64,000 nucleotides of DNA from a virus, in the IMG/VR virus record IMGVR_UViG_3300029892_000001. One strand, written 5' to 3'. The notes under the pieces were generated by a model. It was not told the origin of the DNA and did not search any database. It saw nothing but the letters and a program-made list of their open reading frames with translations. Both the position numbers and the translations under genes were made by a program. The number at the start of each line of letters is the position of its first letter. Position 1 is the first letter of the stretch. This document shows positions 510 to 62,002 of the stretch, piece after piece.

Positions 510-610
510 TTATCAGCAATATCAATTGATATTCGTTTATAACGAGCGGTTTGGACCGTTTCTACCAGCCGATATAAGTGAATATCAATTGATACGGAGG
601 GAAGGCGGAT

Positions 611-7801: not shown

Positions 7802-7909
7802 GCGGGTGATTCACAATTTCTCCGAGCATACTGGGATCGGAAAGAAAGTTGCTGCGGCTCACGTGGAACGGATAGCTAAAGATATCCGCGAACGTGAGGA
7901 AAAGAAACG

Positions 7910-18584: not shown

Positions 18585-18620
18585 AATGGGGGTCGCTTCG
18601 GCGGCCCCCATTTTCTTTTT
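18583..18620 (+). terminator. intrinsic terminator
   Basis: AAAATGGGGGTCGC-TTCG-GCGGCCCCCATTTT + T-tract. Confidence 0.8.
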
Positions 18621-27513: not shown

Positions 27514-27898
27514 AAATGAACGACCGAAAGCGTCTCCTTCTGATGAAGGATGTATACACCGCAGTCCTGGTCAGCACCGAGACTTTCCGCGGTAGAGTCG
27601 GAGCGGATCTCGCCTACTTACTTGGTGCAATTGCCTCCGTAGGCGATGACAAAAAGAAGTGTGCCTTCTCACCTCGGTCTCGAATCGTCAAGATTCTGAA
27701 GGCACACTTCTCGGAGGACCACACGGTTTGGTCCTTCATCGACCTCACGTCCTAGTATAAAGCACGCTCCTGCGTGCAATGAGTGCGGTTTTCTCTGGCA
27801 CCAGCCACACCCACAACATAGCGCTTCCGCGCCCTCAGATTGCTCTTTTAGGGAAAATCGCTCTCGTTGCACGCAGGAGCCGAAAATAAGGAAGGAGA

Positions 27899-36128: not shown

Positions 36129-36145
36129 GAACCCTGGCGATAATA
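36129..36145 (+). promoter_or_regulatory. 17-bp motif copy 11 (GAACCCTGGCGATAATA)
   Basis: Consensus match at start of a structured leader. Confidence 0.75.
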
Positions 36146-36154
36146 AAGTGGCGA

Positions 36155-36260
36155 GGGCAGCGAGTAGCCCGGTTCACAACAATAGTGTTCCCCGTGTGAG
36201 GCTAAGGACACTCACCGGCATGAAGCTTTAGAACCACCTCGCTGCCCGTTCTTTCCCCCT
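36155..36260 (+). ncRNA. structured ~100-nt leader or sRNA
   Basis: 10-bp closing stem GGGCAGCGAG/CTCGCTGCCC enclosing nested CCGGT/ACCGG and AGTGTTC/GGACACT helices; pyrimidine tail. Confidence 0.5.
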
Positions 36261-36278
36261 TCAACCAACAGAAGGAGA

Positions 36279-36680
36279 ATGATCATGAACGTCCTCTTCC
36301 GCTCGCGTCAGGACAAGGTCGCCAGTCTCAAGGATCGCCTCGCCAAGCTCGACGCGCAGATCGCCGCGCAGCAAGAGCGCATCAAGAGTCGCGAGTCGAT
36401 GATCCGGTCGCTCCAGGTCGAGCAGGCGCAGCGTTCGGACAAGAAGGGGCATCGCTCCTTCGGATTCCCGGCGCCAAAGTCGCCGGCCGGGCGGAATGGG
36501 CTCCACAAGGTGGCCTGCCAGATCGTCGATCATCGGAACGCGATCATCGATATCAAGGGGTCGATCCGGAAGCTCGACCGGCAGCGCCGTGTCCTCCTCG
36601 CCGAGATTCAGCACGAGGAGAACATTCTCTCCGCCGGAGCCCCGCTGCTTCGGGACAATCGTCCCGTTCCGCGACTCTGA
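36279..36680 (+). CDS. basic coiled-coil protein (helical hairpin)
   Basis: AAGGAG RBS, strongly G/C-ending codons, two heptad helices. Confidence 0.75.
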   Translation: MIMNVLFRSRQDKVASLKDRLAKLDAQIAAQQERIKSRESMIRSLQVEQAQRSDKKGHRSFGFPAPKSPAGRNGLHKVACQIVDHRNAIIDIKGSIRKLDRQRRVLLAEIQHEENILSAGAPLLRDNRPVPRL

Positions 36681-37178
36681 CCCCTACGGTTTTGCAAGGT
36701 TAGTAAACCTTGCACGCTCTGAAGAGAGGCGTTGAAGACGATTCGTCGTCGGAGCTACAAACCTCTTGAGAGCAAAGTCGAGCCAGCAGACAATAAAGAG
36801 ACTGGCCTCGAAAGGTAAATCCGCCACGGGAAACCGAGTAGGAGTATTGAACAAGTGGGGTTTCCGGTCATCCACAAACCGGGCTTTGTATTCCGTGGTG
36901 GTTGAGAGCCGAGGCTCTCTCCTCCCGTCGACTGAGAAGCTGACTCGATCGAATAGTTGAGAGGTCTTCTACCTCTCCTGGCCTCTGGATGTATCAAGCT
37001 AGGAGTCGAGTTTCTCAGCCGACGGGAGGACGATATGTAAACCGCAGCGCGGAGCGCGCCTTCCAGACACAAACACCTACCACAAAAGACATCGAATGTT
37101 GGCCTGAAAACGATAGATCTAAGTGGAGGATGCCATGCGTAGCTGACCTGACGTAACGCTAAACGCGAACCAAAGATA
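36681..37178 (+). ncRNA. candidate large structured ncRNA (~500 nt)
   Basis: No credible ORF; at least 8 nested helices including a ~26-bp stem 36920-36946/37003-37030. Confidence 0.65.
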
Positions 37179-37218
37179 AGGAAAAGGGCGGGAGAAATCC
37201 CGCCCTTTTCCTGTTTAA
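37179..37218 (+). terminator. hairpin + TTTAA element
   Basis: AGGAAAAGGGCGGGA-GAAA-TCCCGCCCTTTTCCT-G-TTTAA. Confidence 0.75.
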
Positions 37219-37235
37219 CAGGAAGGAAATCAATC

Positions 37236-38036
37236 ATGGACCTGACTCCGGATCACCGTCTAAAGGATCTCATTCGCATCGAGCGAAGGGGCATCGAAAG
37301 AATCGCGACCTTCCCAGAAATCCTTCGGGACTCGAACGGGAAGTACATCGGTATTGTTTCGCTCGATGGCGTGCGGATCGACAATCCGATGGTCGCTTTC
37401 TTGATCGACCTGATCAAGTGGGGCTACGAAAATCTGGAGAGCCACAGCAAGCTCAAGAGGCCTCTTCCGGAAGGGGAGACGCTCAATCTTCCGGAGCCTG
37501 CGTACGTCGAGGGCCTGCGCTTCAAGACCTCAAGACCTCTTCGCGAGTTCTTCCAATTCGTCACGGAGACCCCTGGAGGAACAAAGAAGAGCCGAACGTG
37601 GTTCCACTCGCCTGGACTTTCCACAGGACGCCGCGGATACAAAGACGTCTACTCTGGGGGCACCGCCTTCGAGGCGGCCTGTCTGGCTGCGGTGCAGACG
37701 GGCTACATGATCAGGATGTACGACAATGGGATCCCCAACTTCCATGTCGACGATACGCAAGAGCGCCTTGCGTACCTCGGTACTCGCATGGCTGCCCATG
37801 ATTTCCCGTCCATCGTAAGGGACTCCAGATGGGGGATGATGGACAACTCGATGCCGAGTCGTGGGGTCTGTCACTACGAACGTCGAGTCGTGTTCAACCG
37901 AGAGTTGACACAGGAGCAGCTCGACGTGTACCGTGAGTACCTGAGTCTCGACAACTGTCCCGGCTGGACGGAAATCTACGTGCGCCGTGAAGGCACGGAA
38001 TACATTTTCCGGACCACGATGGATTCGAGCGACTGA
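37236..38036 (+). CDS. hypothetical protein
   Basis: 266 aa; C-terminal DNCPGWT...TTMDSSD. Confidence 0.75.
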   Translation: MDLTPDHRLKDLIRIERRGIERIATFPEILRDSNGKYIGIVSLDGVRIDNPMVAFLIDLIKWGYENLESHSKLKRPLPEGETLNLPEPAYVEGLRFKTSRPLREFFQFVTETPGGTKKSRTWFHSPGLSTGRRGYKDVYSGGTAFEAACLAAVQTGYMIRMYDNGIPNFHVDDTQERLAYLGTRMAAHDFPSIVRDSRWGMMDNSMPSRGVCHYERRVVFNRELTQEQLDVYREYLSLDNCPGWTEIYVRREGTEYIFRTTMDSSD

Positions 38037-41233: not shown

Positions 41234-41255
41234 CAAACGCTAGTTTGGATAATAC

Positions 41256-41408
41256 ACCGGTAGTTGTGGGTCATCTACCGGGGAAGAATAACCCTCCGAA
41301 GAGGAACGGGAGCACGGCCTGCGTAGGATGAAAGTGACGCCTACGTCGGCTTGGCTTCCAGGCAGATGCCTCCACGCGGGATGATACACACCCTAGGCCC
41401 GCACTTGT
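41256..41408 (+). ncRNA. structured intergenic RNA upstream of tRNA-like RNA 2
   Basis: Helices CCGGTAG/CTACCGG, CCTC-CGAA-GAGG, GCGTAGG/CCTACGT, GCGGG/CCCGC. Confidence 0.45.
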
Positions 41409-41553
41409 GGAGAGGTTGGCGGAAAACGTAGCGTTAGCGCAACGCTACGGTGGCAGACGCAACGGTATTAGGAGGCGACGCACCTCTGAATCCGTTGGGC
41501 ACTGATGGTGCTCGACATTGGTGCTCATGCTGGTTCGAATCCAGCACCTCTCC
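41409..41553 (+). ncRNA. oversized tRNA-like RNA 2 (145 nt)
   Basis: Acceptor GGAGAGGT/ACCTCTCC; D-stem GCG/CGC with GGAA and TGGCAGA; T-arm GCTGG-TTCGAAT-CCAGC; extra helices in D-loop, anticodon and variable arms. Confidence 0.75.
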
Positions 41554-41586
41554 CTCCTGAATTAATCTCAATAAGGAGGAATCTAC

Positions 41587-55522: not shown

Positions 55523-56424
55523 GGAGAACAAGATGGCACGATACATCTACCGAGTGTCGGTGAAGAACATCGAAGGCCGAAAGCCTTTGGTGTCCTTCCA
55601 CCCATCCAGGGAAGAGGCGGAGGTGCGGGCTGCCACCTACCCGGATAGCCCTTCGGTGATTGCTCGAAGCTCTCTCAACAAGAAGGGAAATCGGACGATC
55701 ATTCATCGTGGGGCTGGAAAGAAGCTCATGTCCATGAGACGGTACTGGAAGCTGGTCAACGAGAAGTACCAGCACGTCAGGGGGATGTGCTGATGGCCGA
55801 GCCGTACAATGAATACAAGGGCCAGATGTTCCCTCCAGCCTTTCCTCCTCCGTCATTCGACCGTGAGGAGAAGTACATCGCTAGGATGATTCAGAGGGAT
55901 CGCCTCTACGAGACGCGGGACACCACGATTCCATACCGCCCGACCCGGAAGTAATCATGGCACCTGAAAAGAAGGAACAGCACGGTTCGTTCATGTACCG
56001 ATGTACTCGTGAGGCTCCGTACATCGGTAAGAACGTTCCAGGTGCGATGGATACCTCAGCGCGTCAGGGGTACTACATCCGAGCGAATTCGGCCGGCGAG
56101 GCGTACAGGGAAATGTGCGACCGCTTCCCTGATGAGGCTGACGTCGGATTCACCGTGGCGCCATGGAAGGAGTGTTGAACGTGGGGAAGCGCTCGCGAAA
56201 CGACGAAGAGCGAGAACTCTGGGTTCGGAACGACGAGGGTCTCTACAGGTGGTGGCGGTCCGAAATGGGTGGCGAGCGAAAGCTTCGTCAATTCATTCGA
56301 GAGAACCGAACTGCAATCGATGAGGCGATCGATCGGGTCCTCAATAAAGAACCCGAAGAGCGATCGTCGTACTACATGATCGGGCGGGGTGCCGTCGATC
56401 CTGGCACGACTCCGAGAGAGTAAG

Positions 56425-56468
56425 AAAAAAGGGCAGGCCAGAAATGGCCTGCCCTTTTTTTGTTTTTC
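56425..56468. terminator. bidirectional intrinsic terminator
   Basis: A6-GGGCAGGCCA-GAAA-TGGCCTGCCC-T7 between convergent genes. Confidence 0.85.
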
Positions 56469-56478
56469 TGTCCTACGA

Positions 56479-57297
56479 TCAGGCGTCGACTTCGTACGTA
56501 AGAGCGTAGTCGCGGGTGCCGTCTGGCACCGACGCTGCCGTGTAACCGGTGACAGCGCTTCCAGACGGGGTAGCAAACGTGCCTGTAGTGACTACCGCCC
56601 CGGCAACTACCTGGCGAATAGGAGCGAGGAGACCAGCACGAGATTTCATCTTAGCCGCCAGGCCAAGCATATCTCCAAATCCAAACTGGAGAGAGCCGCC
56701 GGTGCCGGCCATGGCTGGTACTGTGATAGAACTCACAATACTCATAGGCCTATCGCCTGCGTCTGTGACACCACCACCGTCTGTGACGGTAACAGTGCAT
56801 GTCTGGGCCACAAGTTCTCCTGCTTCGTTTCTAACGAAGCCCGAGAAAACAACAGCGACTGCATCTACATCCGCGTGAGCCGATGAGGTCACGGTGGGAT
56901 TACGCGGAGGAATCATTTCATCGGAGCCGACAGCGCCGTTAAGAGCAGCACCGGAATACACCTGCTGTGCATCAGCAGTTGCAATGGATGTCTTAATGGC
57001 GTCAACATCTGCTGCCGCAGGGTTAGTGAACTCATCCGTGCGGAGATTTGCACCCTTGCCACTAAGGTGAACGCTAACCGGAGAAAGCTCAATCGAATCA
57101 GGGACGCTGGGATCGGAGCCTACCACGACAGTAATCGTGCCGGCCTCCATAGCGTCCTTAAATGGAACAGACCGTTCCATTTCGGTGAGGGACACGCCGT
57201 CAAAGATTTCGGTTTCACCCGCCGTAAGCCTCTTCCTAATAGGAGCAGGGACTACGTACTGGCTGCTTTGGTTGTTGGTGATTGTTACCCTAGCCAT
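56479..57297 (-). CDS. putative virion structural (decoration/fibre-like) protein
   Basis: 272 aa Ala/Thr/Val/Gly-rich, beta-type composition; GGAG RBS; only intact minus-strand gene. Confidence 0.65.
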   Translation of the reverse strand: MARVTITNNQSSQYVVPAPIRKRLTAGETEIFDGVSLTEMERSVPFKDAMEAGTITVVVGSDPSVPDSIELSPVSVHLSGKGANLRTDEFTNPAAADVDAIKTSIATADAQQVYSGAALNGAVGSDEMIPPRNPTVTSSAHADVDAVAVVFSGFVRNEAGELVAQTCTVTVTDGGGVTDAGDRPMSIVSSITVPAMAGTGGSLQFGFGDMLGLAAKMKSRAGLLAPIRQVVAGAVVTTGTFATPSGSAVTGYTAASVPDGTRDYALTYEVDA

Positions 57298-57362
57298 ATC
57301 AATATTCTCCGGTGGAGGGAAGTGACGTCCCCAAATAACTGCCAGGAGATTTTGATTGAACC

Positions 57363-61952: not shown

Positions 61953-62002
61953 CGCCAAGGCCTTTTAACCGAGGCGGCCCATCCGGGGCCCTTCGGCGTG
62001 TC

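What the first reader, a model, noticed from the sequence alone, without database searches (positions are those of the whole stretch)
36681..37178. Candidate ~500-nt ornate ncRNA co-transcribed with a small basic coiled-coil protein
Seen: this is the largest gap without a credible ORF in a densely coding window. Helices include TGCAAGGTT/AACCTTGCA (36693-36714), TCGAGCCAG/CTGGCCTCGA (36778-36811), CCGCCACGGGA/TTCCGTGGTGG (36821-36902) enclosing CCGGT/ACCGG with a possible GTGG/CCAC pseudoknot, and GAGAGCC/GGCTCTC. A ~26-bp stem (36920-36946/37003-37030) encloses GAGAGGT/ACCTCTC, and AGCTAC (36753)/GTAGCT (37139) could close the whole domain. It sits in a self-contained unit: motif 36129, structured leader, 133-aa protein, RNA, hairpin-TTTAA. 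Known: large phage ncRNAs (GOLLD, ROOL) occur near tRNAs; I could not recognise group I/II intron, RNase P or tmRNA signatures. Inference: a new large RNA class, possibly an RNP with the 36279 protein.
Basis: partly seen in the sequence, partly recalled or inferred. Interest (0 to 1): 0.85.

Follow-up and report, generated by a model that had tools for sequence, protein, structure and literature searches.

The report
Orphan folded RNA in giant phage
A giant uncultured bacterial virus carries 500 protein-free bases, predicted to fold into several helices, between a small gene and a likely transcription stop; this is likely an undescribed non-coding RNA, but no relative of it was found, its expression is untested, and a related virus has the same gene without it.

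Summary
The observation mostly holds. 36681-37178 has no credible ORF and no Rfam match. Its 26-bp long-range helix beats 100 of 100 shuffles. It sits in a unit made of a promoter-like motif, a leader, a 131/133-aa gene, the element and a terminator-like hairpin; 11 of 14 such hairpins lie within 34 nt of a stop codon, this one 498 nt away. Caveats: the whole genome folds better than its shuffles (the element ranks 5 of 59 tiles), the last 150 nt fold no better than chance, and the proposed AGCTAC/GTAGCT closure has probability 0.016. No DNA homolog was found, so covariation could not be tested; expression is untested. A syntenic phage contig has the same protein (42% identity) with its stop directly on the terminator and tmRNA plus six tRNAs upstream. 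This weakens the obligate-RNP idea and suggests a slot with swappable stable-RNA cargo. Best reading: an undescribed orphan phage ncRNA of about 350-490 nt, in the functional category of ROOL/GOLLD but not a member of either family. The scan's index shows no earlier look-alike of this sequence.

The parts
36129..36146 (+). Phage promoter-like motif (AACCC-N4-GATANTA type); promoter function inferred
   Evidence: 23 copies on +, 0 on -, 0 in 10 shuffles; in related contigs it precedes tRNA genes and tmRNA
36155..36247 (+). Leader domain closed by a perfect 10-bp helix (36155-36164/36238-36247)
   Evidence: z about -2 only; no Rfam or phage BLAST hit
36258..36277 (+). 5-bp hairpin predicted to cover the ribosome-binding site GAAGGAG
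   Evidence: fold; sequence
36279..36680 (+). 133-aa ORF (131 aa from ATG 36285, which has the better RBS spacing); basic helical hairpin of unknown function
   Evidence: codon score +24; AF2 helices 10-54 and 69-119, pLDDT 81; pI 11.1; 13-sequence family; no fold or family hit
36681..37178 (+). Candidate non-coding RNA, whole element
36688..37171 (+). Predicted 5-bp closing helix 36688-36692 / 37167-37171
   Evidence: pair probability 0.86; short, no covariation
36693..36773 (+). Helices P1 (36693-36714) and P2 (36716-36773)
   Evidence: p 0.88-0.98; z -4.9 with boundaries chosen after the fact
36778..36901 (+). P3 (36778-36811) and P4 (36821-36901), with a possible pseudoknot 36855-36858/36872-36875 plus 36864-36868/36878-36882
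   Evidence: z -1.7 without the pseudoknot
36904..37030 (+). P5 hairpin directly abutting the 26-bp P6 stem, which closes a branched loop
   Evidence: 0 of 100 shuffles, rank 2 of 127 tiles; z -6.0 with boundaries chosen after the fact
37032..37178 (+). Weakly structured 3' segment, A/C-rich in its first half
   Evidence: z +0.3; 88 of 150 shuffles fold as well
37179..37218 (+). 15-bp hairpin followed by TTTAA; terminator function inferred
   Evidence: one of 14 hairpin-TTTAA sites in the window; same feature behind the homolog in L002
37236..38036 (+). 266-aa hypothetical protein, conserved downstream neighbour; not part of the unit
   Evidence: 9 database homologs and one in L002; no Pfam

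Best explanation
The stretch is a protein-free insert that likely encodes a stable, multi-helix non-coding RNA of about 350-490 nt, predicted to be made as the 3' half of one transcript with the small coiled-coil gene and likely acting in trans as a scaffold or decoy for proteins during infection. Shown: no ORF, the helices, the unit's layout, and the absence of the element beside the same gene in a syntenic phage that has tmRNA and tRNAs there instead. Inferred: transcription from the motif at 36129 to the hairpin at 37179-37218. Inferred: release by cleavage after the stop codon, or survival after decay of the mRNA part, since no promoter-motif copy lies inside the unit; the 5-bp end-to-end helix and the terminator hairpin would protect the ends. 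Inferred and least certain: a trans role binding host or phage proteins, in a genome region that also encodes RNA-repair and anti-defence domains. The locus looks like an expression slot for stable RNAs with exchangeable cargo, not a fixed RNA-protein pair.
For: No coding signal. 26-bp helix beyond all shuffles; the three top-ranked tiles (27681, 36681, 181) each contain a long stem lying between called genes. P1-P5 domain z -3.8, 0 of 150 shuffles. Stop-to-hairpin distance 498 nt against 34 nt or less for 11 of 14. Motif strictly on the coding strand, 23 to 0; no copy with up to 2 mismatches inside 36141-37240. In syntenic L002 the homolog follows motif, tmRNA and 6 tRNAs. Window context: T4-type RNA ligase, phosphoesterase, AAA_33 domain, tRNA-nucleotidyltransferase-like protein, Tad2-like domain (8 of 96 ORFs had a Pfam hit). 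Precedent: ROOL and GOLLD are phage RNAs near tRNA islands (PMC12286853, passages); PA5oct has highly transcribed ORF-free RNAs with no database match (PMC7318152, passages).
Against: No homolog found: phage and plasmid BLAST, one viral pattern scan (50 of 50 loci unrelated), models R1/R2 over 10 sources and 5 genomes. Hence no covariation. No expression data. Total folding is not unusual for this genome (5 of 59, 4 of 55, 27 of 65), and a Watson-Crick helix count is ordinary (59 bp against a tile mean of 54 +/- 12). The minus strand folds at least as well. The last 150 nt are unstructured by the shuffle test. The trans role rests on analogy only.
Confidence: 0.5

Rival explanations
1. A long structured 3' UTR acting in cis: it would set the stability or translation of the coiled-coil gene's mRNA, perhaps together with the structured leader.
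For: No internal promoter motif. Leader and 3' element are both absent beside the homolog in L002. The RBS sits in a predicted hairpin. A 9-bp complement links leader 36166-36174 and element 36877-36885.
Against: At least four such long-range 9-bp complements occur in the 1.1-kb unit, so that one is at chance level. The homolog is kept without any 3' extension. 500 nt is far more than phage mRNA stabilisation usually uses (own knowledge).
Confidence: 0.2
2. A dedicated ribonucleoprotein: the basic helical hairpin binds this RNA.
For: Co-transcription is inferred. 11 of 13 family members have pI above 10. The hairpin tip and base are conserved while 7-residue blocks drop out of both helices together. 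The homolog sits in a stable-RNA cluster in L002.
Against: L002 has the gene without the element nearby; only 13,086 of 48,566 bp of that contig are held, so a distant copy is not excluded. No RNA-binding fold or family match.
Confidence: 0.12
3. Not one RNA but a string of two or three independent small hairpin cassettes, or a recently acquired and decaying piece of foreign DNA with no current role.
For: The fold is a row of local helices; long-range support is one 5-bp helix. Strong folding is confined to two blocks. No conservation was found.
Against: No terminal inverted repeat of 6 nt or more, and only one 6-nt direct repeat at the ends. No transposase, reverse transcriptase or homing nuclease among 96 window ORFs. 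No pseudogene signal. Helices abut with linkers of 0-9 nt over 340 nt.
Confidence: 0.15
4. A DNA-level element such as a replication origin or recombination site.
For: ORF-free, with inverted repeats.
Against: No iteron-like family among the 20 largest repeat families. No AT-rich block, and no switch in cumulative GC skew. Stems need G-U pairs on + (P4 two, P6 one). It lies inside an inferred transcription unit.
Confidence: 0.03

Closest known systems
ROOL RNA (PMC5737381, PMC12286853; passages read)
   Same: Large (average 581 nt), phage-encoded, orphan function, multi-helix, often near tRNA islands; here the syntenic locus of a relative is a tRNA/tmRNA cluster
   Different: No Rfam match even at E 10; six junctions and three pseudoknots are not shown here; no tRNA in this window; sits behind a protein gene; no homologs found
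GOLLD RNA (PMC12286853; passages read)
   Same: Phage-encoded large orphan RNA category
   Different: Shorter (GOLLD often exceeds 800 nt); no match to the GOLLD model; multimer formation untested
OLE RNA with OapA/B/C (PMC12286853; passages read)
   Same: Model for a large RNA with protein partners
   Different: No model match; the neighbouring protein here is a soluble helical hairpin, not a membrane protein, and occurs without the element
PA5oct ncRNA001-004 (PMC7318152; passages read) and the multi-copy RNA of phage RaK2
   Same: ORF-free 230-620-nt RNAs in jumbo phages with no database match
   Different: Three RaK2 copies show no alignment to this element, straight or circularly rotated; the PA5oct sequences were not compared directly beyond the phage-collection BLAST

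Membership tests
ROOL / GOLLD / OLE | Match to the family's covariance model | tested here: not met
   0 hits at gathering score; none of these among 16 weak hits at E up to 10; whole window at E 0.5 gave one unrelated fragment
ROOL / GOLLD | Often near tRNA islands | tested here: inconclusive
   0 tRNA in the window; the syntenic relative has 6 tRNAs and tmRNA at this locus but lacks the element
ROOL / GOLLD / OLE | Junctions and pseudoknots supported by covariation | not testable with these tools
   No homolog found, so no alignment
ROOL / GOLLD | RNA-only multimers or cages | not testable with these tools
   Needs mass photometry or cryo-EM
tmRNA (one- or two-piece) | tRNA-like ends and a tag reading frame | tested here: not met
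   ARAGORN 0 genes; no Rfam hit; alignment to the L002 tmRNA below the shuffle mean, 83 of 100 shuffles score as high
RNase P RNA | CR-I and CR-V motifs forming P4 | tested here: not met
   No Rfam hit; recalled consensus motifs absent on both strands; only a loose CR-V resemblance at 36875-36887, seen by eye
Group I intron | R/S motifs (P7) and exon context | tested here: not met
   Recalled motifs absent; no Rfam hit; lies outside any gene
Group II intron | 5' GUGYG and domain V | tested here: not met
   Recalled GTGCG and domain V motifs absent; no Rfam hit
Hammerhead ribozyme | CUGANGA and GAAA core with stems I-III | tested here: not met
   CTGAAGA at 36719 and GAAA at 36810 exist, but no NUH site gives both stem I and stem III (checked by eye), and the needed stem II conflicts with P2/P3; no Rfam hit
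RaK2-type multi-copy jumbo-phage RNA (earlier scan notes) | Sequence profile match | tested here: not met
   Profile of 3 copies has no hit on the element; pairwise z -2.8 to +0.9 against a positive control 13 sd above shuffles; rotated alignments no better; an 8-mer excess (21 against 10) ranks 3 of 256 tile scores
IS / MITE / retron-type mobile or RT-linked RNA | Terminal repeats or a linked transposase or reverse transcriptase | tested here: not met
   only this 64-kb window of a 403-kb contig could be scanned

The most novel reading that the evidence does not exclude
The founding member of a new class of large phage RNA, confined to an uncultured clade of ~400-kb phages, cut out of a protein-coding transcript and folding into a compact pseudoknotted particle that oligomerises or docks on the co-expressed coiled-coil hairpin to disarm a host defence or remodel translation.
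Probability: 0.2. Interest if true: 0.8.

Novelty: new variant of a known kind. Interest (0 to 1): 0.45.

Why it matters
Large bacterial and phage RNAs are rare, and the known ones (ROOL, GOLLD, OLE) have unknown functions and unexpected quaternary structures. A further unrelated one, made from the tail of a protein-coding transcript in a slot where a relative keeps tmRNA and tRNAs, would widen that class and give a defined, synthesisable 500-nt target for probing and cryo-EM. As it stands it is a single sequence without covariation or expression data, so it is a good candidate, not a discovery.

Tried and rejected
Homolog hunts without result: phage BLAST and plasmid BLAST. The best short hits were inspected and are chance: a hairpin in a 117-nt gap of Aeromonas phage LAh10, a tRNA-cluster spacer in LR745208, and an open frame in a Sinorhizobium plasmid. 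Viral scans with the protein or its alignments gave one false hit, a capsid gene, and four blanks with this protein and neighbours' proteins, plus a blank. Genome scans were blank. The metagenome scan stopped at 45 of 64 parts and gave 3 loci; only L002 is a full-length homolog, while L003 and L004 match 50 residues at 35% and were not used. One RNA pattern scan gave 50 loci, none related. Two contigs sharing the promoter motif (G001, G002) do not overlap this region; the 18-nt hit in G002 lies in an ORF. Single-sequence covariance models found only the element itself and weak generic-hairpin hits; such models are insensitive. A weak nhmmer hit in L002 (E 0.056) straddles two ORFs. Rejected readings: hammerhead core, RNase P CR-V resemblance, permuted tmRNA, leader-element 9-bp pairing, kinship with the RaK2 RNA, the 160-aa antisense ORF, and an internal sigma70 site at 36766-36794 (9 of 12; 2 found against 0.6 expected; not relied on). 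An alternative pseudoknot 36984-36989/37062-37067 has no support. For the protein, Foldseek, PDB, PHROG and Atlas searches gave only generic coiled coils or scores under 0.9; one source's label 'small-conductance mechanosensitive channel' for P0002 fits neither the fold nor Pfam. One script timed out with no output; one nhmmer run against the window passed no residues and was redone.

Full report
Setting. The window belongs to a 403,515-bp contig and reads as a giant-phage accessory region: 130 of 131 called genes are on +, 8 of 96 scanned ORFs have a Pfam hit, and no tRNA or Rfam family reaches threshold. No whole genome was available, so all statements about the genome cover only these 64 kb.

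Is it non-coding? A codon model trained on 23 long ORFs scores every ORF over 36681-37178 at or below zero; the 160-aa antisense frame scores -44.5, while the flanking genes score +24 and +37. Six-frame read-through has no Pfam or PHROG hit. Five larger gaps in my gene calls hold ORFs or long open frames on inspection.

Is it structured beyond chance? Partly. The listed helices are there, and MFE z is -4.3. The shuffle test flatters it: most tiles of this genome beat their shuffles. The element ranks 5 of 59 by excess energy (the run ended at 57.7 kb), 4 of 55 after dropping tiles with perfect hairpins, and 26 of 64 tiles hold more high-probability pairs. One feature is clearly exceptional: the 26-bp stem 36920-36946/37003-37030, reached by 0 of 100 shuffles (maximum 18) and by only 1 of the other 126 tiles. 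By sub-domain, with boundaries chosen after seeing the fold, P1-P2 gives z -4.9, P3-P4 -1.7, P5-P6 -6.0 and the last 147 nt +0.3. The pseudoknot in P4 is possible but unscored. Energy does not fix the strand; gene orientation, the promoter motif and three G-U pairs in P4 and P6 favour +, and one A-C mismatch in P6 favours -.

The unit. The motif at 36129 has 23 copies on +, none on - and none in shuffles. In related contigs it precedes tRNA genes, so it is likely the phage promoter. No copy with up to two mismatches lies inside the unit. The hairpin-TTTAA at 37179-37218 is one of 14. Of 14 hairpins measured (13 of those, leaving out the weakest at 61964, plus one at 18586 added by eye), 11 lie within 34 nt of a called stop, two about 100 nt, and this one 498 nt. 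The element is therefore an unusual insert between a stop codon and its terminator.

The protein. It is predicted as a two-helix hairpin, basic, with 12 relatives aligned. Tip and base are conserved and seven-residue blocks are lost from both helices together. It has no family or fold assignment.

The key comparison. L002, a metagenome contig, is collinear with the window over at least five genes. Its homolog (42% identity) ends with the stop codon directly on a hairpin-TTTAA. Upstream lie one promoter motif, tmRNA and six tRNAs, with two HNH-like ORFs among them. Neither leader nor element is detectable in the 13,086 bp held. So the protein does not need this RNA beside it, and in both phages the gene appears to share a unit with non-coding RNA of different kinds. 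This is one comparison on a fragment. The closest relatives, at 68-77% protein identity, could not be fetched.

Homologs and known families. No DNA homolog was found in phages, plasmids, viral contigs or five large phage genomes. These searches need exact words or rest on single-sequence models, so they do not exclude distant relatives. Rfam at E up to 10 hits mainly the terminator, all far below gathering scores. Signature motifs of group I and II introns and RNase P, recalled from memory, are absent. Earlier scan notes described a multi-copy RNA in RaK2-like phages. I located three related non-coding copies in RaK2, which I take to be that family, and found no relation to this element.

Literature. 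Four searches returned no paper describing this element; the library lacks most subscription papers, and I opened no supplements, so the supplementary motif tables of PMC5737381 and PMC8040213 could bear on novelty. I read matched passages of PMC12286853, PMC5737381, PMC7318152 and PMC10085705 (nothing relevant); other papers were seen only as listings.

Mechanism. Most likely (0.5) one transcript runs from about 36152 to about 37212, and its 3' half persists as a stable folded RNA that binds proteins in trans as scaffold or decoy. Layout and helices are shown; transcription, processing and the trans role are inferred. The role is suggested only by analogy with ROOL/GOLLD and by the neighbouring RNA-repair and anti-defence domains. 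Rivals: cis-acting 3' UTR (0.2), independent hairpin cassettes or a remnant (0.15), dedicated RNP (0.12), DNA element (0.03).

Verdict. A real, ORF-free, partly well-folded element with no known family. It works, most likely, like an orphan phage ncRNA and is not a member of ROOL, GOLLD or OLE. Class status awaits homologs and expression. Interest 0.45.

Noticed in passing
window 27766-27880: A 31-32-bp stem enclosing a 53-nt C/A-rich loop just upstream of the RBS of ORF 27899; z -9.6, the strongest long-range helix of 127 tiles. Absent at the syntenic place in L002. Candidate small RNA or leader.
   Followed up: partly
window 41234-41586: Second 353-nt gap without a called gene, a row of hairpins, z -4.0, no Rfam hit.
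   Followed up: partly
window 520-594: AT-rich 25-bp inverted repeat in a GC-rich genome, between genes.
   Followed up: no
window, 23 sites from 261 to 63520: Strand-specific promoter-like motif, shared with L002, G001 and G002; 14 hairpin-TTTAA sites recur as a likely terminator type.
   Followed up: partly
window 11371, 17322, 43294, 46250, 51670, 16746: Tad2-like domain, tRNA-nucleotidyltransferase-like protein, T4-type RNA ligase, phosphoesterase, AAA_33 domain and cREC domain: a likely RNA-repair and anti-defence set.
   Followed up: no
L002 7700-8049 and 9754-9877: Structured spacers in the tRNA cluster: one with a T-arm-like hairpin at 7816-7830 that ARAGORN does not call, one with a possible H-type pseudoknot (seen by eye); no Rfam family at threshold.
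   Followed up: no
L002 7015-7379: Phage tmRNA with tag ANDNAISHFAAAA, and two HNH-like ORFs inserted among the tRNAs.
   Followed up: no
window 56424-57356: Region with long open frames that my caller left empty; possibly a minus-strand gene in an otherwise one-stranded window.
   Followed up: no
L092 11320-11820, L101 280-780, L083 6790-7430 (phage RaK2): Three related non-coding copies; two are nearly identical over their 3' part.
   Followed up: partly
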